From a virus (lineage: Duplodnaviria; Caudoviricetes): DNA of 64,000 nucleotides. Positions 312 to 43,041 of the stretch are shown here, piece after piece. Under the pieces are notes generated by a model that saw only the letters and a list, made by a program, of their open reading frames with translations, searched no databases and was not told where the DNA came from. Each line of letters starts with the position of its first letter. Within the stretch, counting starts at the first letter, position 1. Position numbers and translations under genes: made by a program. The stretch spans positions 64,001 to 128,000 of IMG/VR virus record IMGVR_UViG_3300032038_000005; one strand, 5' to 3'.

Positions 312-345
312 TCATATATCAGAGATATCAGATTGGGTCTAACAA

Positions 346-376
346 ACAAACTCCTTTCATTCGGGAGTTTGTTTTT
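346..376 (+). terminator. Intrinsic terminator
   Basis: AAACAAACTCC-loop-GGAGTTTGTTT followed by a T-rich tract. Confidence 0.7.
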
Positions 377-416: not shown

Positions 417-444
417 CATATAAATATAATTAATATGATATGAA
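417..444 (+). promoter_or_regulatory. Putative phage early promoter motif, copy 1
   Basis: ATATAATTAATATGATATGAA, near-identical to 17891-17918 and 42968-42996, each upstream of an isolated + strand gene. Confidence 0.65.
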
Positions 445-453
445 TAAGTATCA

Positions 454-567
454 CTTATTACATCGACAAGATGTTCCATAACAGTATGGCATATCACATC
501 CACGTAGACTTCCATAAGGGTATCTAGTCAATATCCGTTTGCGGGATGCACACCAGGGGGTGTTATT
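454..567 (+). ncRNA. Conserved structured 5' leader RNA, copy 1
   Basis: Homologous to 17930-18049: shared GGCATATCACAT, AAGG, CT(A/T)GTCA loop and GGGATGCAC; compensatory changes in stems; RBS inside the hairpin ACACC-AGGG-GGTGT. Confidence 0.7.
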
Positions 568-1032
568 ATGGAAACAAAGACATTCACATATGGTAGCTAT
601 AAAGTTACCGTGGATCTCGAACCATTTAAGCGGTTCGATGGAGAAGAAGCCAGCGTCTTCTATGCCCATGTTAAATGGGTCGAAACAGCTGGATGGTGGT
701 CTTACAAGGGCACATTCGAGATGCATTTCTGGATCGATGGGAATACCGGAGATCTCTGGGGTTCCCGTGAATACACAGTGCAGCACCAGATCTCGAATTC
801 TCTGTCCATAAAATGGGGCTTTATCGAGCTCTGGATGCTCGACAGAGTTCCGGCACACATCATTGCTGGATTCATCCGGGGTGACGTTAAACAGTTCGAC
901 GAAGTTGTGACAACTCAGTCACAGCTCAATGAACTGATTGCGATCCTTGCCAATGCCGGGGAACATGATGCTGAGGTTATCCTCATGAATCATTTCGCAG
1001 GCAGGTTTGGACCGCCGGACCTCACACTCTGA
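568..1032 (+). CDS. Hypothetical (likely early) protein, 154 aa
   Basis: ATG with GGGGGTG RBS; flanked by conserved leader and trailer. Confidence 0.8.
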   Translation: METKTFTYGSYKVTVDLEPFKRFDGEEASVFYAHVKWVETAGWWSYKGTFEMHFWIDGNTGDLWGSREYTVQHQISNSLSIKWGFIELWMLDRVPAHIIAGFIRGDVKQFDEVVTTQSQLNELIAILANAGEHDAEVILMNHFAGRFGPPDLTL

Positions 1033-1039
1033 TGAAATG

Positions 1040-1112
1040 AATAACCGGGGGAGATCTCTGGGAGCTTGCTGTTTGTCGGCCCGACGCTCCATTCTCCCTC
1101 GGTTATTTTTTT
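1040..1112 (+). terminator. Conserved structured 3' element/terminator, copy 1
   Basis: AATAACCGGGGGAGA...TCTCCCTCGGTTATT plus T-tract, enclosing the core GGAGCTTGCTGTTTGTCGGCCCGACGCTCC; homologous to 18510-18585. Confidence 0.7.
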
Positions 1113-1118
1113 CTTTTT

Positions 1119-3272
1119 TTACATGTATTGATTGACACTTTGGAAGAATGCAATATCCGAATTGCTGAGTGTGTCCAATTGTGGTTCTTTTTCATATAGA
1201 TGTTTGTTATATTGATCAGCTCGATATCCATATGCATCTACACCACCTGGTTGATCAAATCCCATTCGTTGATCACGTTGATTTGAATTGATAATATCAT
1301 TCAACAACTGATTTTCATAAGCATTTGGATTCTCATAGTAGACAACATTATTGACAACTTCTTCTTGAATTGAATCCTCATACTGTTGGGTGATTTGATA
1401 TGCCTTCTCAAATGTTTGTTGTTCTTTGATAATACCGAATCGAGACAGGTCATAGCCATATGTTAATACATATAATACATGACAATATGCCATTACCACG
1501 TCATCATGTTCTCCACGGTCTGCTTGAATCTTACCGCCCATAATGGTTAAATTGGTAATATCTTTTACCAATAACTTTGAATAGATCATGTGACGATAAT
1601 CATGTACGAAGCGTTTCAATAGTGCCATCATGTCATTACGCACTTTTGCTGTGACATTTGTACCGATATATTTTTTGATCTGTCCACGATGCTTCATTTT
1701 CAATGCCGTATCCACAGTTCTTACCAAAGCATTCTTTGTGATATCCAACTGTGGATCGTGATAGAATCGATACTCTAATTGAGATTCTTGTACCCATTCT
1801 ACCAATGCCTTACCAACAGAATTGGTTTCTGGACAGAAAATAGCACGTGGTAACATCTTTGCTAATTGAGTAATGACACGTATCAAATCTAATGAACAAC
1901 CCAGATATGGAGAACAGATCTCTCCAACAATTTCCAATGTATAGGGATGAACGATAATCAATACTGTGTTGTCGCCACCCGTACCAGCAGCGATATCAAT
2001 GCCAATTAAGTATGGTACCGAGATGTCGAAATATGGATGTTCTGAATTTAAATCCTTTTCATGGATTTGATGATCATATACATACATCACATATTTTTTT
2101 AATAGCATGATTTCATGATCCGGATTTCGTACATGTGCAATCAAGTAATCAATGTCATCTTGTAAGAAGATACTGGTATCGGAACCACGATATCGTTCCA
2201 ATAGTACACCTCGACGATACTCTGAAATATTACCTGCAATTTCTGCAGCTCGATATTGTTCTGCAACCCATGCTTCTGTTTTGCGCAATTGCTTCCAATC
2301 GAATTCTATATGCAATTTTGTAACAGGTATCTTCATACCATCTTCTCCATCTTGTTCCATACCAGAAAACATCTTTTTGATATCTTCTTCTGGCAAGTCA
2401 TACATCTGTTCGGAGAACTTGGGAGTTGCTTCGATAATCTTCAATGCCTCTCTACCAATGGATGTTTCCAAGTCGCCAGGAGTTGATGCATACATCATAC
2501 AACAACGTTTTCCTAATTTACGTGCATTTTCACGAGCGGAGATCATAGCTGGTGCACCACCTGCGATAACAGAACCAACATATGGTAAGTATTCAAATTC
2601 GTCAATAAATCCACCAAACAAAGTATATCCTCTCAATTTGTCCTTTGCTTTGGATTCTGAATCTGCAACCGATACAATTGCAATGCTTGTACCATGTTCA
2701 TCATATTTCAAAGACTTTGTTCCCGGGGGATGTTTTCTCCCATACCAGGGATTCAAATAAGGTGGGAGTGATTCGATATAATCTCTCAGAATTCCTGCGT
2801 TATCTGTACAACGCGTCTCCGTCAAATGCAGATAGGGAATGTCACAATTTTGATATTCAAATAAAAACATATATGCAATGATTGCAGTCACCCATGTTGT
2901 TTTCATACATTGTCTTGGAGTACAGATAGAAAAATCAACAGAATGATCAAAACACCATAACATTGCAGCGGACATTCTCGATAGTTCGGTCTTCATTAAA
3001 CCCACACCACGTACAGGAATACGTAAGACTTCACGAAAAAAGAAATACGGATTTGCTTTACATTCTAACACAATCTTTGCAATCTCTTCTTGTGTGATAT
3101 CTTTTTTATAAGGATCGAGATCCTGTACTCCTAATTGTGGATACATGATACGAAGAGGAAAATACCAGTTCTTAATCCCAATGGTTTTCAATTCTTGGCA
3201 AGTTTGTAAAAAAGAAGTATTCGATGTGCCGAGATCATAATAGTTGTTGCCGATTTTACATACATTACTCAT
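1119..3272 (-). CDS. terL: Terminase large subunit
   Basis: Walker A-like PRQCMKTT, Walker B GFIDEFE, YASTPG, nuclease motifs GIDIAAG and HDDVVMA; start moved to ATG 3272 (AGGAG RBS, overlaps the upstream stop). Confidence 0.9.
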   Translation of the reverse strand: MSNVCKIGNNYYDLGTSNTSFLQTCQELKTIGIKNWYFPLRIMYPQLGVQDLDPYKKDITQEEIAKIVLECKANPYFFFREVLRIPVRGVGLMKTELSRMSAAMLWCFDHSVDFSICTPRQCMKTTWVTAIIAYMFLFEYQNCDIPYLHLTETRCTDNAGILRDYIESLPPYLNPWYGRKHPPGTKSLKYDEHGTSIAIVSVADSESKAKDKLRGYTLFGGFIDEFEYLPYVGSVIAGGAPAMISARENARKLGKRCCMMYASTPGDLETSIGREALKIIEATPKFSEQMYDLPEEDIKKMFSGMEQDGEDGMKIPVTKLHIEFDWKQLRKTEAWVAEQYRAAEIAGNISEYRRGVLLERYRGSDTSIFLQDDIDYLIAHVRNPDHEIMLLKKYVMYVYDHQIHEKDLNSEHPYFDISVPYLIGIDIAAGTGGDNTVLIIVHPYTLEIVGEICSPYLGCSLDLIRVITQLAKMLPRAIFCPETNSVGKALVEWVQESQLEYRFYHDPQLDITKNALVRTVDTALKMKHRGQIKKYIGTNVTAKVRNDMMALLKRFVHDYRHMIYSKLLVKDITNLTIMGGKIQADRGEHDDVVMAYCHVLYVLTYGYDLSRFGIIKEQQTFEKAYQITQQYEDSIQEEVVNNVVYYENPNAYENQLLNDIINSNQRDQRMGFDQPGGVDAYGYRADQYNKHLYEKEPQLDTLSNSDIAFFQSVNQYM

Positions 3273-5481
3273 TTGATACAGCTCCTGTTTCATTTTGAAC
3301 CGGCGCTGGTTTAGCAGCAAGATCATTAAATTGATTCAGCAATTCATCCATTTTAGCCGCAACCCCCTCAATACCTTGGAGATATAAATCAATTGATGCG
3401 AAGAGATCTATCGTTGATTTAATGAAATTTCCATCCCATTGTAGATACTGTTGAATATTCGTCAATTGATTGCGTGCAGCATTAGATAAAATTCCATCTT
3501 TTACATTAGCATCCGCGGTAGATACAGCATTAAGACAGGCAATTAATCCATTATTTTTATTTGGATCCCCAATTATGTTACTAATCATTGCTAATTTTCT
3601 TGATAGACTTTCACGAATACCGATATACTGAGCTAATGGTAAATTAAACTCAGCAATTGTTTCACCTTTATAGGCGTTCGTAAATTGATCATAGAAATTA
3701 ACGATATATTTTCTATATTCGAATGCGAATTGACTCATATCGAGATTTAACGAAAATGCTTCAATAGTTTTTTTCCCTTTCTCAGCAACCTTAGAAACTC
3801 CCTTCATTAGCTGATTACCCATTGAAGACATTGTGCCTTTAAGAGTTGAGAGCTCTCCTTGTTTGGTATCACCGGTGTACCGCTGTATTTGGCTTCCCCC
3901 ACTTTTTTGAGCTTCAAATTGTTTAAAATATTCATCGAGTTCTGATTGGCTCTTTGGAATGGGATGTCCATTTTTTACGCTGTTGATTATAAACACATTG
4001 AATTCCTTGGCAATATTCTTAATCTGTTCTTTAGACATATTCGGATTTGATTTCGCTATTTTATTTGCGGCAAATGTCATAAACTTCCTTTGCTGTTCTT
4101 CCGATATTGATATTTTTGTTGCGGTTAACTTTTGCTTATCATTTTCAGGATTTTGATTTTCCTGTTTCTGTTGTTGTGGCTTTGGAGCAGCTGCTGGTGG
4201 TTCTTGATTCTCTTTAGCTGGTGTTTCAGCTGGTGTTACAGGTGTCTCCTCTTCCTGATAAAATGAGTCCCAACTGATGATAGGGATATCATATTCCGAA
4301 AATTGACCAGATTGTTGCTGTTTTAATAACTGATTACATTTGATAATATAATATTTAATATAATTTTCCAATGCTAAACCACTATAGTCTCCAGATTTGA
4401 TTTTCTGTTCAACTTGTTCAAGCGACATTTCTTGTTTTGATAAAAAGGTTGAGGCATGTGAGTCGATCAATCTAAAATCGATGGGAACATGCAAAACACC
4501 TTGCTCATCATATCTTACAAGATCCACAATTTCGTCAATATTAATATTTGGAGGAATAACACCTGCCACGCCAGAATTTTGGATAATCAATGAAATGAAT
4601 TTTTTTGCATTTTGAGAAACCTGACTTGCAAGTTTGTTAATATTCTCTTTCATAGCAGACATTTCTTGTGTGAAATTTTCAGCAGCCTGATTTATTGCAT
4701 CAGAAGCATAAGTTTTTACGTCATTCATCATATCTTGTGCTTTAGCAGTTGCATTATTCATCATATCTTGTGCTTTAGCAGTTGCATTTCTAAGGGTATC
4801 TTGTGCTGCACTTTGAACGTAATCCTTTCCTTTCTGAACTAACTCATCAGCTTTACCTTTTGCATATTCTTTTGCTTTTTCGTCTAAACCTGCTTGGTGA
4901 GCTAAATATGCACCACCAGCTAATGCTGCAACTGTTCCGGCCTTTCGAGCAAAATCTCTTCGACTTTCTTCACGATCGCTTCTTTTTTCAAACTCAACAA
5001 ACATCTTGTAGCATTCTTCCCGGAAGTTTTGATCATTCTTCATGGCGTCGAGCATTTGTGAAGTTAACGGTACCATTTCTGGTTCTTTACTTTTCATTTG
5101 CTCCAAATTATCAACGGTTTTCTTTGCTTCATTGATTGCCTGGTCACTACTCATTTTTTGTGTTTGATCATTTACGACTCCGAATAATTTACGTAAAAAA
5201 TCCCACATTTTTTGCAGAATACCTTTTTTAGCAGTATCCTTATTATTCTGATCAGTTTGATCAACCCCGGTTTGGTTGGTAGCATCGTTACTTTGATTAG
5301 ATCCCCCTTGTTGTCCAGCTTCTTGAATGAGTATAGCCCTTAATAAATCATCATTATAACAGGTCTCTAACATCCATATTGCTTTTCCATATGAATTCAT
5401 TAATTCGTTTGCAACTAAGAAATCATAGTTTTGTTTAGAAGAACGGAACTCATCTAAATTAAAAAAGAATGAATTTTCCAT
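3265..5481 (-). CDS. Putative internal head/virion protein
   Basis: Helical low-complexity protein; LIQE-A followed by the amphipathic KKGILQKMWDFLRKLFG, as in the 55414 and 58353 ORFs; start moved to MENSFFF. Confidence 0.55.
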   Translation of the reverse strand: MENSFFFNLDEFRSSKQNYDFLVANELMNSYGKAIWMLETCYNDDLLRAILIQEAGQQGGSNQSNDATNQTGVDQTDQNNKDTAKKGILQKMWDFLRKLFGVVNDQTQKMSSDQAINEAKKTVDNLEQMKSKEPEMVPLTSQMLDAMKNDQNFREECYKMFVEFEKRSDREESRRDFARKAGTVAALAGGAYLAHQAGLDEKAKEYAKGKADELVQKGKDYVQSAAQDTLRNATAKAQDMMNNATAKAQDMMNDVKTYASDAINQAAENFTQEMSAMKENINKLASQVSQNAKKFISLIIQNSGVAGVIPPNINIDEIVDLVRYDEQGVLHVPIDFRLIDSHASTFLSKQEMSLEQVEQKIKSGDYSGLALENYIKYYIIKCNQLLKQQQSGQFSEYDIPIISWDSFYQEEETPVTPAETPAKENQEPPAAAPKPQQQKQENQNPENDKQKLTATKISISEEQQRKFMTFAANKIAKSNPNMSKEQIKNIAKEFNVFIINSVKNGHPIPKSQSELDEYFKQFEAQKSGGSQIQRYTGDTKQGELSTLKGTMSSMGNQLMKGVSKVAEKGKKTIEAFSLNLDMSQFAFEYRKYIVNFYDQFTNAYKGETIAEFNLPLAQYIGIRESLSRKLAMISNIIGDPNKNNGLIACLNAVSTADANVKDGILSNAARNQLTNIQQYLQWDGNFIKSTIDLFASIDLYLQGIEGVAAKMDELLNQFNDLAAKPAPVQNETGAVSNE

Positions 5482-17852: not shown

Positions 17853-17874
17853 GAACGCCCCATATGGGGCGTTC
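17853..17874. repeat. GCCCCATATGGGGC palindrome between divergent units
   Basis: GAACGCCCC-ATAT-GGGGCGTTC. Confidence 0.75.
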
Positions 17875-17890
17875 TATCATTTTGATTTTT

Positions 17891-17918
17891 CATATATATA
17901 TAATTAATATGATATGAA
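17891..17918 (+). promoter_or_regulatory. Putative phage early promoter motif, copy 2
   Basis: CATATATATATAATTAATATGATATGAA. Confidence 0.65.
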
Positions 17919-17929
17919 GAAGTGAAATG

Positions 17930-18049
17930 CTTCTTACATCTCGTCCCAGAGGTGGTTCCTATACTGTTAGGCATATCACATTCACTTGGGCATTGAACTA
18001 AGGCGACTTGTCATCGTCAGTCTAAGGGATGCACCGTGGAGGTGATTTT
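17930..18049 (+). ncRNA. Conserved structured 5' leader RNA, copy 2
   Basis: Homologous to 454-567 with covarying stems; RBS GGAGGTG inside the hairpin CACC-GTGGA-GGTG. Confidence 0.7.
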
Positions 18050-18499
18050 ATGTTCGATTATCTCAACCCCTATCTGTTCGGGGACAAAGAACAGGATGAT
18101 GTGCCGGAGGCTGTGCCTACTCCGACGCAGCAGAACCCCAGCATCAACTTCAACGTTAATGCTGAGGCGGTAACTGCCTTAGTTAGCGGGTTGGTGGCCA
18201 TTGCCGGCGCCTTTGCGAAAGCGAAGGCACAGGTACCCGCTGCACCGGCAGCACCCGCTGCACCGGCAGCACCCGCTGCTGATGACAACCTCCGTCAGGA
18301 GGTAGCCCAGCTGCAGTCTGGAATGAAATATCTCATTCAGCGGCAGGCAACCGCTGACAGAGATGCAGCCTACGATGCCGCAGAAAAAGCCTTCCAGGCA
18401 GCTGTGACAAAAGACCCCTCCAAAGCAATGGAGGCACTGGCTGGGTACAATGCAGCACGCAAGGCCGCTGACGAAGTCTACCACAAGTTGGTAGGCTAA
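18050..18499 (+). CDS. Ala/Pro-rich hypothetical (likely early) protein
   Basis: GGAGGTG RBS; hydrophobic segment, (PAA)n linker and helical C-terminus; visibly more GC-rich than its flanks. Confidence 0.8.
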   Translation: MFDYLNPYLFGDKEQDDVPEAVPTPTQQNPSINFNVNAEAVTALVSGLVAIAGAFAKAKAQVPAAPAAPAAPAAPAADDNLRQEVAQLQSGMKYLIQRQATADRDAAYDAAEKAFQAAVTKDPSKAMEALAGYNAARKAADEVYHKLVG

Positions 18500-18509
18500 G
18501 TCAAAACAT

Positions 18510-18585
18510 AATAACCGGGAGCGTTCCGTTCGGGAGCATGCTGATGTCGGCCTGACGCTCCCATTTGCTCCCGGTTATTTTTTTT
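18510..18585 (+). terminator. Conserved structured 3' element/terminator, copy 2
   Basis: AATAACCGGGAGCG...TGCTCCCGGTTATT plus T-tract, enclosing the core GGGAGCATGCTGATGTCGGCCTGACGCTCCC. Confidence 0.7.
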
Positions 18586-22226: not shown

Positions 22227-22612
22227 AACATTCTTTCTTTCTTTTCTAGACATAAGGTTTTTCAGCGGCGAAGAACTAAACCACTATATGGAACAATCTA
22301 TTGTGTATTTAACAAATCATTCTATATAGTATATGATTTTCTAATTATTTTTTCTCTATACTATCAATGTTTATATAGTATTATATAGAAGATAATCCTC
22401 CCGGATTATCTTCCCGTCAATAGTTAGTACTTTTTAACTTTTATTATTATTTTAGCATATAGAAATAAAAGTTATACAATCACATACTATTATATTTACA
22501 TTTTCATATAACGAGAATGATACAACAATTCTTCAGTTATACATGTATATGATTATTTTGACAATGGAGAAATGACATTGAATTACCATAATAAGAAAGG
22601 AAGATTAGTAGT

Positions 22613-28067: not shown

Positions 28068-28864
28068 TGAATCAGGAGATGATTATTATGGAAATTATCG
28101 ATATCAAAATCGACAACAACATGCGCTCAGAACCGTATCCGACATTATTGAGTAAAGGCATTCGTTCAGAATGCCTTTACTTCAACACTGCGGTTATCGT
28201 GACAATCAAACCGAAGAAATGGATTGACTGCTTCTATCGTTTGTTCTGGGAAGATAACTATCTACATATCCCACGCACACGTCATTCCAAATTCGTACGA
28301 CATGAATCAAAAGACATATTCGACTTGTTTGAAATGCATCTCACTTTGGCAGAGGTGATGGATTTTCTGTATGATGCAACACCACCATTGCTTCGTAACC
28401 AGTTACCAAGTGGAACACAAACAATTGATGATATTGTCGAATTGATGAAGACATTCCTCATTGAAGAATCGAAACAACGTGACATGTACCAGAGTATCTT
28501 CCAGAAGATTACAAAGTATGGTGTATTTGAAAAACGGAATGTCATGGATTTACAGAAGATGCAGTTATTGCGTCAGAAGACACCAACAGGTTTACTGTGT
28601 CAGGTGATTTATTCTACTTCCGCATTGCAAACAATGTTCGATACAAATGTGACTGTTAATGGTATCTTCTTACTGCATGCAAACAATAATACAGACATGG
28701 AAGAATTCGTCAGAACCATGTTCAAGTACTACGGACAGCATTCCGTTACTGTATGTGATGTTCACAGAGACCCCAGTAGTGGGAATTACATCATGATTCA
28801 GTATATCGGTGATATGTTCAATGAACTTGTTACGAGAACTTACAAACCCTTTGTTTCTGTATAA
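28067..28864 (+). CDS. Hypothetical protein (start may be 28088)
   Basis: Operon-coupled ORF; AGGAG RBS before 28088. Confidence 0.75.
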   Translation: MNQEMIIMEIIDIKIDNNMRSEPYPTLLSKGIRSECLYFNTAVIVTIKPKKWIDCFYRLFWEDNYLHIPRTRHSKFVRHESKDIFDLFEMHLTLAEVMDFLYDATPPLLRNQLPSGTQTIDDIVELMKTFLIEESKQRDMYQSIFQKITKYGVFEKRNVMDLQKMQLLRQKTPTGLLCQVIYSTSALQTMFDTNVTVNGIFLLHANNNTDMEEFVRTMFKYYGQHSVTVCDVHRDPSSGNYIMIQYIGDMFNELVTRTYKPFVSV

Positions 28865-28958
28865 GAAAAAAGTTTCTTTTGGACATATGTATTGTTAAAT
28901 TGACCGGAGGTCAATTTAATATAGTAATAATAAACAATTAGAAAGGAAAGTTTGTATT

Positions 28959-30239: not shown

Positions 30240-30872
30240 ATGCCAAGTATGAAGAAAACAAAACCCAATATGAACAAAGACCCCAGACAGTTACACATCG
30301 ACAACATGGGCTTCAAAGACTCTGTCAAGAAATCGTTAAAGAAAGCTGGTCTGAAGACGGCTTATGATGTTGCTGAGTATCACAACAGACGACTGCTGAG
30401 TGAGATTGATGGAATTAACAAACGTCACATTTGGCATATTGTCAAGGTTCTCCATCAGGAAACAAACATGATTCTTCCCGATATCAATCACATGGATGAT
30501 GTATGGGAATGGGCAGCCGTTAAGCGTATCGTAAAAATCTTCATTGCACAACCGATGTCCGGTAGAGCTGATGATGATGTGCTGTATGAAAGATGTGAAG
30601 CCATGAAAGAAATCATGGACTGGTTCACTAAGTACAAACCCAACTGTGTACCCGCCTTCCTTGACCAGTATTACGTAGATGATGCACCGAAAGATGCAAC
30701 CCCAGTATGGTATCTCGGCCACAGTATCATGATTCTGGCAAAGGCTGATTATATCTACTTCACTGGAAACTGGTGTGAAGCACGCGGTTGCAACATCGAA
30801 TATGAGATTGCCAAAACATATCAGATTCCGATTCTGAATGATAAGATGAAGATGATTTTGATGATGGGATGA
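30240..30872 (+). CDS. RNAP alpha-CTD-like HhH domain fused to a DUF4406/nucleoside-deoxyribosyltransferase-like domain
   Basis: IDNMGF...LKKAGLKTAYDV...LSEIDGIN; KIFIAQPMSG...ADYIYFTGNWCEARGCNIEYEIA. Confidence 0.6.
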   Translation: MPSMKKTKPNMNKDPRQLHIDNMGFKDSVKKSLKKAGLKTAYDVAEYHNRRLLSEIDGINKRHIWHIVKVLHQETNMILPDINHMDDVWEWAAVKRIVKIFIAQPMSGRADDDVLYERCEAMKEIMDWFTKYKPNCVPAFLDQYYVDDAPKDATPVWYLGHSIMILAKADYIYFTGNWCEARGCNIEYEIAKTYQIPILNDKMKMILMMG

Positions 30873-42950: not shown

Positions 42951-42967
42951 CTATTTATCTTAATTTT

Positions 42968-42996
42968 CGTATATATAATATTAATATGATATGAAA
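42968..42996 (+). promoter_or_regulatory. Putative phage early promoter motif, copy 3
   Basis: CGTATATATAATATTAATATGATATGAAA. Confidence 0.6.
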
Positions 42997-43041
42997 ATAT
43001 CAAAATGATTTATCTGTAATGATGAAAGGAGAGAAATCCAT

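What the first reader, a model, noticed from the sequence alone, without database searches (positions are those of the whole stretch)
417..1112. Shared RNA-structured expression cassette around two unrelated genes (second copy at 17891-18585)
Seen: ORFs 568-1032 and 18050-18499 share no evident protein similarity, yet both have the same layout: AT-rich motif ATATAATTAATATGATATGAA, a ~115-nt homologous leader, a ~450-bp ORF, then a ~75-nt homologous hairpin with T-tract. Each is a + strand unit ending head-to-head with a minus-strand core operon. The third copy of the promoter motif (42968) has neither leader nor trailer, so the two RNA elements occur together. Inference: a dedicated mRNA chassis with swappable cargo. 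Options include 5'/3' end-coupled translational control (as in hok-type mRNAs), a handle for a phage RNA-binding protein or RNA packaging/export, or flanks for cassette exchange by recombination. I do not recognise it as a named RNA family.
Basis: partly seen in the sequence, partly recalled or inferred. Interest (0 to 1): 0.9.

Follow-up and report, generated by a model that had tools for sequence, protein, structure and literature searches.

The report
Shared leader and terminator on phage early-gene cassettes
Two unrelated orphan genes of an uncultured cattle-gut jumbo phage share a promoter, a folded 5' leader and a long terminator, most likely because early-gene regulatory modules are reused and recombined, as in the promoter/terminator cassettes of T4-type phages.

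Summary
Units 417-1112 and 17891-18585 share a promoter, a leader (about 70% identical, self-BLAST E 1.7e-9) and a hairpin/T-tract trailer (about 79%). Their ORFs are unrelated orphans.

Corrections:
- The AT-rich motif is the clade's general early promoter. It matches the phage AR9 virion-RNA-polymerase consensus at 10-11 of 13 positions with the same 6-nt spacing to a conserved G. There are at least 7 copies here and at least 25 in a complete relative.
- A third trailer (93% identical) lies outside the window. It follows an unrelated leader and cargo, so leader and trailer do not strictly co-occur.
- The units are convergent, not head-to-head, with late genes. The trailer abuts their stop codons, so it is probably a bidirectional terminator.

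The leader is a genuinely conserved fold: 7 compensatory pairs and a column-shuffle z of -8.8. It elaborates a hairpin at +1 that follows nearly all early promoters in the clade. Rfam gives no match.

Strain and relative comparisons place replacement breakpoints at the promoter, the start codon and the terminator end.

Best reading: a jumbo-phage counterpart of the promoter/stem-loop (PeSL) modular shuffling of T4-type phages, that is, self-contained early "moron" cassettes. A dedicated RNA-recognition role for the leader is not excluded. This scan flagged the same stretch before from an overlapping window.

The parts
344..374 (+). Terminator hairpin of the preceding early cassette. The exchange unit shared with strain contigs L025/L026 begins in its T-run, at about 372.
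   Evidence: Terminator scan. Homology to L025/L026 starts at G000 64372, which is window 372.
418..436 (+). Early promoter core of cassette 1: a 13-nt AT-rich element (418-430) plus a 6-nt spacer (431-436). The predicted start is G437.
   Evidence: It matches the AR9 early consensus (13-mer, 6N, G+1) from PMC5312081 at 10 of 13 positions. The motif is repeated in the genome and in relatives.
437..567 (+). Leader 1: a 131-nt structured 5' UTR. A 5'-terminal helix (437-442 with 490-495) encloses two hairpins. A long bulged hairpin follows, then a small hairpin presenting the Shine-Dalgarno sequence.
   Evidence: Model R2 scores it at 158 bits.
568..1032 (+). Cargo 1: a 154-aa orphan protein with GC3 0.54.
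   Evidence: The only relative is a 99% strain variant. No Pfam or PHROG hit. The structure model is poor, pLDDT 47. GC3.
1040..1112 (+). Trailer 1: a long composite hairpin plus T-run, 6 nt from the stop codon of the convergent terminase gene. Probable bidirectional intrinsic terminator.
   Evidence: ORF map.
1119..3326 (-). Convergent late gene: terminase large subunit.
   Evidence: PHROG phrog_2, E 1.6e-30.
17853..17874 (+). GGGGC/GCCCC-type stem-loop with a T-rich tail immediately upstream of promoter 2, giving the stem-loop-then-promoter layout.
   Evidence: The same type of hairpin precedes the promoters at G000 6364 and 106975.
17892..17910 (+). Early promoter core of cassette 2. The predicted start is G17911.
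   Evidence: 11 of 13 positions match the AR9 consensus.
17911..18049 (+). Leader 2: a 139-nt structured 5' UTR homologous to leader 1.
   Evidence: Model R2 scores it at 119 bits.
18050..18499 (+). Cargo 2: a 149-aa Ala/Pro-rich orphan with one hydrophobic segment and a helical C-terminal part.
   Evidence: No homologue at E 0.001. No family hit. Only weak helical look-alikes in the Atlas.
18510..18585 (+). Trailer 2: the same composite hairpin plus T-run. Its last base is the first base of the convergent 311-aa gene's stop codon.
42962..42988 (+). Third promoter copy in the window, with a short 54-nt leader that starts with a simple +1 hairpin. It has no shared leader or trailer.

Best explanation
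These are self-contained early-gene cassettes of an uncultured jumbo phage from bovine gut. The phage carries split multisubunit RNA polymerases distantly related to those of Bacillus phage AR9.

Each cassette has four parts:
- An AR9-type early promoter, read by the virion RNA polymerase (inferred by analogy).
- A 5' UTR that begins with a helix at +1.
- A strong Shine-Dalgarno sequence and one orphan gene.
- A long composite hairpin with a T-run. It sits directly against the stop codon of a convergent late gene, so it probably terminates both directions.

The same leader and trailer flank unrelated genes because regulatory modules here are units of homologous recombination. Cargo, leader-plus-cargo, or cargo-plus-terminator are exchanged between conserved promoter, leader and terminator flanks. 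This happens in fixed variable slots between conserved late operons. The closest precedent is the promoter/stem-loop (PeSL) modular shuffling of T4-type phages.

The leader is a selected RNA structure. I infer, but have not shown, that together with the terminator hairpin it stabilises the mRNA and sets translation of highly expressed early genes.
For: Phage type:
- RNA polymerase beta fragment, terminase and tail-tube hits.
- The nearest named relatives of the beta subunit are AR9/PBS1, at 29% identity.

Promoter:
- The conserved 13-mer, 6-nt spacer and invariant G match the AR9 early consensus at 10-11 of 13 positions (PMC5312081).
- At least 25 copies occur in relative G002.

Clade-wide +1 hairpin:
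- Nearly every promoter is followed by an inverted repeat whose 5' arm starts at that G. Loops vary and stem extensions covary.
- In leaders 1 and 2 the 3' arm lies about 50 nt downstream and encloses two hairpins.

Leader fold:
- 39-40 pairs, 7 with compensatory changes and 6 with one-sided compatible changes.
- No shuffle reached the observed pairing or covariation score, and slid controls collapse.
- Column-shuffle test: z -8.8, 0 of 500.

Trailer:
- 25-pair hairpin with compensatory changes plus a U-run.
- It lies 0-6 nt from the convergent stop codon at all three sites.
- Intrinsic, motif-sharing and bidirectional terminators have been mapped experimentally in jumbo phage 201phi2-1 (PMC11512511).

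Modularity:
- Copy 3 shares the promoter region (85%) and trailer (90-93%) with copy 1 but not the leader or cargo.
- Strain contigs L025 and L026 are 100% identical over 792 nt, then diverge exactly at the end of the trailer T-run. L026 runs into terminase. L025 runs into the gene that follows copy 3.
- The gene upstream of the cassette is also replaced in L025, and homology resumes in the T-run before the promoter.
- At site 2, relatives G001 and G002 are 94% identical through promoter and leader up to the ATG. They lose nucleotide homology across ORF and terminator (proteins 28% identical) and regain 98% afterwards.
- All three sites are variable slots between conserved genes. The slot after terminase holds different early cassettes in four relatives.

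Cargo: all three are orphans.
Against: - No transcript data. The start site, the termination and the polymerase assignment all rest on analogy.
- Only two independent leader sequences exist, so the covariation evidence is thin. The fold was also derived from the same two sequences.
- The L025 junction could be a metagenome assembly chimera formed at the repeated terminator.
- The apical part of the trailer is more conserved than a plain terminator needs: about 16% divergence against about 31% in the lower stem. That hints at a sequence-specific role which recombination alone does not explain.
- No further leader or trailer copies with new cargo were recovered.
Confidence: 0.62

Rival explanations
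1. Dedicated regulatory RNA. The leader, and perhaps the conserved apical module of the trailer, is the binding site of a phage or host factor. That factor would co-regulate these particular early mRNAs as a translational operator, a protection tag, or a localisation or export tag. Recombination would be secondary.
For: The fold is conserved by compensatory changes while primary sequence has drifted to 70%. Several unpaired stretches are identical in both copies. The trailer apex is more conserved than its lower stem. The clade-wide +1 hairpin suggests that early transcripts carry a common 5' mark.
Against: There are only two leader copies. The conserved leader motifs occur nowhere else in this genome or in the complete relative. 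The leader is absent from four related records. The trailer also occurs with a different leader. No candidate binding protein was identified.
Confidence: 0.2
2. The two ORFs are extremely diverged paralogues from one duplicated gene. The flanks would be what remains recognisable.
For: Site-2 cargo in relatives G001 and G002 is only 28% identical between conserved flanks. Very fast cargo divergence therefore does occur in these slots.
Against: No BLASTP similarity even at E 10. Composition and predicted architecture differ completely: beta-then-helix against an Ala/Pro-rich membrane-like helical protein. Non-coding flanks at 70-79% identity next to coding sequence with no detectable similarity is the reverse of normal divergence. 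Copy 3 carries a third unrelated cargo with a 93% identical trailer.
Confidence: 0.05
3. Site-specific cassette system of integron type, with the 3' imperfect hairpin acting as a recombination site.
For: A 70-80-nt imperfect hairpin lies at the 3' end of each cargo. One strain junction falls exactly at its end.
Against: No tyrosine recombinase was found in this record or in the complete relative, while the controls were positive. Each cassette has its own promoter. The hairpin carries a U-run and abuts a convergent stop codon, as a terminator does. The integron core-site consensus is not present in the stem, by inspection.
Confidence: 0.03
4. hok-type control, in which the 5' and 3' ends of the mRNA pair to gate translation.
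For: Both ends are structured and conserved together in two units.
Against: The best leader-trailer duplex is weaker than most duplexes with shuffled trailers: 289 of 300 and 229 of 300 shuffles did at least as well. Each end folds stably on its own. The trailer also occurs with another leader.
Confidence: 0.02

Closest known systems
PeSL (promoter-early stem-loop) mobile regulatory cassettes of T4-type phages (Arbiol et al. 2010, PMC2839356; Comeau et al. 2014, PMC4122927)
   Same: Repeated composite early-promoter and stem-loop-terminator modules flank orphan genes in variable regions between conserved core blocks. Replacement and indel breakpoints between close relatives fall inside these modules. 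The stem-loops upstream of the promoters are of the GGGG...CCCC kind. Terminators keep early transcription out of late genes.
   Different: The promoter is an AR9-type virion-polymerase promoter, not sigma-70-like. The repeated modules extend to a 131-139-nt structured 5' UTR and an 80-nt composite terminator. The host phage is a jumbo phage with its own polymerases. Mini-circles were not tested.
Morons (Hendrix-type autonomous promoter-gene-terminator units in phage genomes)
   Same: A single gene with its own promoter and terminator lies between conserved genes. Its base composition is atypical (GC3 in the top 4-8% of the genome).
   Different: Here the regulatory flanks are themselves homologous between units and appear to mediate exchange. 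The high-GC3 class is shared with other genes of this phage, so it need not mean foreign origin.
AR9 / phiKZ-type early promoters of virion RNA polymerase (Lavysh et al. 2017, PMC5312081)
   Same: An extended AT-rich 13-mer, a 6-nt spacer and a conserved G at the start, present in tens of copies before early genes of unknown function.
   Different: 2-3 positions of the 13-mer differ. A hairpin starting at +1 is near-universal here. I did not find this described for AR9 in the passages I read.
Motif-sharing and bidirectional terminators of jumbo phage 201phi2-1 (PMC11512511)
   Same: Terminator hairpins carry recurring sequence motifs across the genome. Some are elongated composites and some are bidirectional.
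   Different: The phage clade and the motifs differ. Here there are only three copies, each at a convergent early/late junction.
5'-terminal stem-loop mRNA stabilisers (T7 phi10 leader, B. subtilis aprE leader, phage SP82 stabiliser), recalled from memory and not tested
   Same: A helix at the very 5' end plus a strong ribosome-binding site on highly expressed mRNAs.
   Different: No sequence relation. A stabilising effect has not been shown here.

Membership tests
PeSL-type regulatory cassette | Intergenic composite of an early promoter with an adjacent stem-loop terminator, repeated in the genome | tested here: met
   A stem-loop plus T-run lies directly upstream of the promoters at window 344-374 and 17853-17874 and at G000 6300 and 106940. 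The promoter is repeated at least 7 and at least 25 times.
PeSL-type regulatory cassette | Promoter is sigma-70-like | tested here: not met
   The motif fits the AR9 virion-polymerase consensus. Sigma-70-like sites are not enriched: 65 found against 68.8 expected.
PeSL-type regulatory cassette | Flanks orphan genes in variable regions between conserved blocks | tested here: met
   The cargo proteins are orphans. The slots lie between conserved genes and their content differs in relatives.
PeSL-type regulatory cassette | Replacement or indel breakpoints between related genomes lie in the elements | tested here: met
   L025/L026/G000 breakpoints fall at the T-run before the promoter and at the end of the trailer. 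The G001/G002 breakpoints fall at the ATG and after the terminator. An assembly chimera is not excluded for L025.
PeSL-type regulatory cassette | Recombination between elements yields mini-circles | not testable with these tools
   Needs inverse PCR or long reads from infected cells.
Intrinsic (factor-independent) bidirectional terminator | Stable GC-rich hairpin followed by a U-run, with an A-rich 5' flank giving a U-rich tail on the other strand | tested here: met
   Fold energies of -33 to -37 kcal/mol with z down to -5.6, then 7-8 U. The 5' flanks are A-rich. The reverse strand of copy 1 scores 29 bits with model R1.
Intrinsic (factor-independent) bidirectional terminator | Transcripts end there | not testable with these tools
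   No RNA run holds the stretch.
AR9-type early (virion RNA polymerase) promoter | 13-nt AT-rich consensus, 6-nt spacer, G at +1 | tested here: met
   10 of 13 positions (copy 1) and 11 of 13 (copy 2 and the clade consensus), with identical spacing to an invariant G.
AR9-type early (virion RNA polymerase) promoter | Early transcription independent of protein synthesis, starting at that G | not testable with these tools
   The phage is uncultured and no RNA data exist.
Any Rfam family | Covariance-model match at or near the gathering score | tested here: not met
   No hits in the whole window at gathering thresholds. No hits at E up to 1 in the three cassette loci.
Integron gene cassette / attC | Integron-type tyrosine recombinase in the genome | tested here: not met
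   PF00589 is absent from G000 and from the complete relative G002. The controls were positive in 14 of 14 genomes.
hok/sok-type mRNA | Long-range 5'-3' pairing of the mRNA ends | tested here: not met
   The leader-trailer duplex is no better than with shuffled trailers.

The most novel reading that the evidence does not exclude
The leader would be a new class of cis-regulatory RNA, built by expanding a +1 hairpin that marks all virion-polymerase early transcripts of this jumbo-phage clade. That 5' mark, together with the conserved apex of the trailer, would be read by a dedicated phage factor that protects, localises or translationally gates early mRNAs. On this reading the 'chassis' is functional, not only a recombination scar.
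Probability: 0.15. Interest if true: 0.75.

Novelty: new variant of a known kind. Interest (0 to 1): 0.45.

Why it matters
If correct, this extends promoter/terminator-mediated modular shuffling from T4-type phages to jumbo phages that transcribe with their own multisubunit polymerases. Until now it has been documented only with host sigma-70 promoters.

It also shows that whole structured 5' UTRs can serve as the exchanged or conserved module.

The work defines a probable early-promoter consensus and a near-universal +1 hairpin for an uncultured rumen and gut jumbo-phage clade. Both help annotate early, probably host-takeover or anti-defence, orphan genes. The leader and terminator could be tried as portable expression parts.

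The scope is narrow: two leaders and three trailers in one lineage. No specific RNA function has been demonstrated.

Tried and rejected
- **Rfam:** nothing at gathering thresholds over the whole window or at E up to 1 over the cassette loci.
- **BLAST against GenBank phages:** no match with the cassette DNA or with the ORF1 protein.
- **IMG/VR pattern scans:** three completed scans, one for the trailer core and two for the leader, found nothing.
- **Metagenome scan:** It says nothing about further copies.
- **Covariance models:** R1 (trailer) and R2 (leader) found no copies in relatives G001-G004 or in three small related contigs.
- **Relatives search:** not available for a virus record.
- **Longer contig:** a 259,834-bp ENA contig of the same phage could not be searched. 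About 57 kb of this genome therefore remains unexamined.
- **Sequencing runs:** no RNA holder is listed. Five DNA runs from bovine or other gut hold the stretch, none on record as RNA.
- **Laid contigs:** these are short unitigs. Several carry the promoter, leader variants (about 86-95% identical) or the trailer joined to sequence unlike the window. I could not read those sequences, so new cargo cannot be told from merely diverged cargo. I do not count this as evidence.
- **Cargo function:** no Pfam or PHROG family for ORF1 or ORF2. ORF3 has only a sub-threshold M48 peptidase hit around an HEVGH motif. Atlas look-ups and a single-sequence structure model were uninformative.
- **Leader peptide:** the short ORFs at the 5' end of the two leaders are not conserved (13 codons against 3), by inspection.
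- **Leader motifs elsewhere:** none in G000 or G002.
- **Simple terminator scan:** it misses the trailers because their loops exceed its limit.

Full report
**What is there**

The window is bases 64001-128000 of a 202-kb IMG/VR virus record that is about 75% complete. Genes around the finding encode a terminase large subunit, a fragment of a multisubunit RNA polymerase beta subunit and tail-tube-like proteins. The nearest named relatives of the beta subunit are Bacillus phages AR9 and PBS1 and Staphylococcus jumbo phages, at 26-29% identity. DNA runs that hold the stretch are bovine and other gut metagenomes. This is therefore an uncultured jumbo phage with its own polymerases.

**Check of the observation**

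Both units are as described.
- The two upstream regions align from the AT-rich motif to the ATG, and similarity stops at the start codon. A genome self-comparison gives 69% identity over 179 nt, E 1.7e-9.
- The downstream elements align at 79%. They fold into long hairpins followed by 7-8 U, far more stable than shuffles (z -5.6 and -4.9).
- The two proteins have no detectable similarity.
- The units are convergent with the minus-strand genes. Trailer 1 ends 6 nt before the terminase stop codon. Trailer 2 ends on the first base of the next gene's stop codon.

**A third copy outside the window**

Searching the whole record found a third trailer at C1:7236-7312, 90-93% identical to trailer 1. 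It closes a cassette whose promoter region is 85% identical to that of cassette 1. Its 109-nt leader and its 245-aa cargo, which carries an HEVGH motif, are unrelated. That trailer also lies 3 nt from the stop of a convergent 2427-aa gene. Trailer and leader therefore assort independently.

**The promoter is general and of the AR9 early type**

The AT-rich motif has 7 good copies in this record. A complete 294-kb relative, G002, has at least 25.
- The conserved block is a 13-nt AT-rich element, a 6-nt spacer and an invariant G.
- The experimentally defined AR9 early promoter is AAATATATATTAT-(6N)-G+1 and is read by the virion polymerase (PMC5312081).
- The element here matches at 10 of 13 positions (copy 1) or 11 of 13 (copy 2 and the clade consensus), with the same spacing.
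- I therefore place the start at G437 and G17911. This is an inference by analogy.
- Sigma-70-like sites are not enriched in the region.

**A hairpin at +1 is the rule**

In nearly all promoter copies of both genomes an inverted repeat starts at that G.
- The commonest form is a 6-7-bp stem with a GAAA loop.
- Other copies have different loops and covarying stem extensions. That pattern argues for a folded single strand, not a dimeric protein operator.
- In leaders 1 and 2 the 3' arm lies about 50 nt downstream, so the helix encloses two extra hairpins.
- The shared leader is thus an elaboration of a clade-wide 5' feature.

**The leader is a conserved fold**

RNAalifold gives 39-40 pairs. Seven have changes on both sides that keep the pair, and six have one-sided compatible changes.
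- Pair counting: no shuffle reached the observed pairing or covariation score, and the signal collapses when partners are slid by 1-3 columns.
- Column-shuffle test of my own, preserving the conservation pattern: consensus energy z -8.8. No shuffle of 500 reached 7 compensatory pairs.
- Caveat: there are only two independent sequences, and the fold was derived from them.
- The last hairpin presents the Shine-Dalgarno sequence.
- No conserved upstream peptide exists (inspection).
- The conserved leader motifs occur nowhere else in this genome or in G002.

**The trailer**

Four distinct versions share a 25-pair hairpin with compensatory and one-sided changes in the lower stem and a nearly invariant apex.
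- The 5' flanks are A-rich, so the other strand also reads hairpin plus U-rich tail.
- The element is the only intergenic structure between convergent genes at all three sites.
- A bidirectional terminator that insulates an early cassette from a late operon is the simplest reading.
- Motif-sharing, composite and bidirectional terminators have been mapped experimentally in jumbo phage 201phi2-1 (PMC11512511).
- The higher conservation of the apex is unexplained.

**Evidence that the modules are recombination units**

1. Cassettes 1 and 3 share the promoter region and the trailer but not the leader or cargo. Cassettes 1 and 2 share promoter, leader and trailer but not the cargo.
2. ORF1 occurs on two other contigs from other samples.
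   - L025 and L026 are 100% identical over 792 nt, from the preceding terminator to the end of the trailer T-run. They diverge at that point.
   - L026 continues into terminase, as in the window. L025 continues into the gene that follows copy 3 here.
   - L025's flanks are 84-86% identical to this genome, while the cassette is 97.6% identical.
   - In L025 the upstream cassette carries a different gene, and homology resumes in the T-run just before the promoter.
   - An assembly chimera at the repeated terminator cannot be excluded.
3. At site 2, relatives G001 and G002 are 94% identical through the promoter and a 240-nt leader up to the ATG. They have no nucleotide similarity across ORF and terminator (proteins 28% identical), then are 98% identical again.
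4. All three sites are variable slots between conserved genes. The slot after terminase holds different early cassettes, with leaders of 49-295 nt and different composite terminators, in four relatives.
5. All three cargo proteins are orphans. ORF3 has only a 37% relative at the same site in G002.

**Comparison with what is known**

This is the pattern described for PeSL elements in T4-type phages. Those are repeated early-promoter/stem-loop modules, preferentially next to orphan genes in hyperplastic regions. Recombination between them explains insertions, deletions and replacements between close relatives, and their terminators keep early transcription out of late genes (PMC2839356, PMC4122927). 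Even the GGGG...CCCC type of stem-loop upstream of the promoter recurs here.

The differences are:
- the promoter class (virion polymerase, not sigma-70);
- the inclusion of a long structured 5' UTR and an 80-nt composite terminator among the shared modules;
- the phage lineage.

**Rivals**

- hok-type end pairing is not supported.
- An integron-like system is unlikely, because no tyrosine recombinase is found in this record or in the complete relative.
- Diverged paralogy is unlikely.
- A dedicated protein-binding role for the leader or the trailer apex is not excluded. I give it about 0.2.

**Limits**

- There are no RNA data.
- My one metagenome scan was wasted on a pattern that matched high-GC genomes by chance.
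- About 57 kb of the same phage on a longer ENA contig could not be searched.
- Covariance models found no copies in four related records. The family is, as far as seen, confined to this lineage: two leaders and three trailers, plus strain variants.

**Verdict**

The most likely explanation is reuse and recombination of early-gene regulatory modules, a new variant of a known kind. It is not a categorically new RNA system.

Noticed in passing
window 22238-22420 (minus strand) and G000:C1:4385-4568: A 185-nt ORF-less module is present twice at 84% identity, each copy followed by a terminator hairpin. It folds with z -3.5 and has only chance-level Rfam hits (E 0.019 or weaker, far below the gathering scores). 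It may be a duplicated small RNA gene or a long shared leader.
   Followed up: partly
G000:C1:4619-4707, 30523-30597, 92850-92934 (window 28850-28934), 188241-188310: Another 60-90-nt non-coding module occurs in four copies at 84-92% identity, in both orientations.
   Followed up: no
all early promoters of G000 and G002, e.g. window 437-455 and 42988-43003: Nearly every early promoter is followed by an inverted repeat that starts at the predicted +1 G, with variable loops and covarying stem extensions. This suggests a 5'-terminal RNA hairpin on all early transcripts, or a DNA hairpin needed by the virion polymerase.
   Followed up: partly
whole record G000, e.g. C1:30000-54000 and the cassette ORFs: A class of genes with GC3 of 0.53-0.62, against a genome mean of 0.40, includes all the early-cassette cargo examined (four ORFs). 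This may be a distinct codon-usage class of early or highly expressed genes, not a sign of foreign origin.
   Followed up: partly
G000:C1:188368-188692: One early promoter is followed by a 325-nt leader before the first ORF with a ribosome-binding site. Site 2 in relatives G001 and G002 has a 240-nt leader. Unusually long early 5' UTRs are common in this clade.
   Followed up: no
L176:790-900 and G002:C1:265440-265550: The site-2 terminators of relatives G001 and G002 are double hairpins whose loops share a GCCGCCG-like motif, although the stems differ.
   Followed up: no
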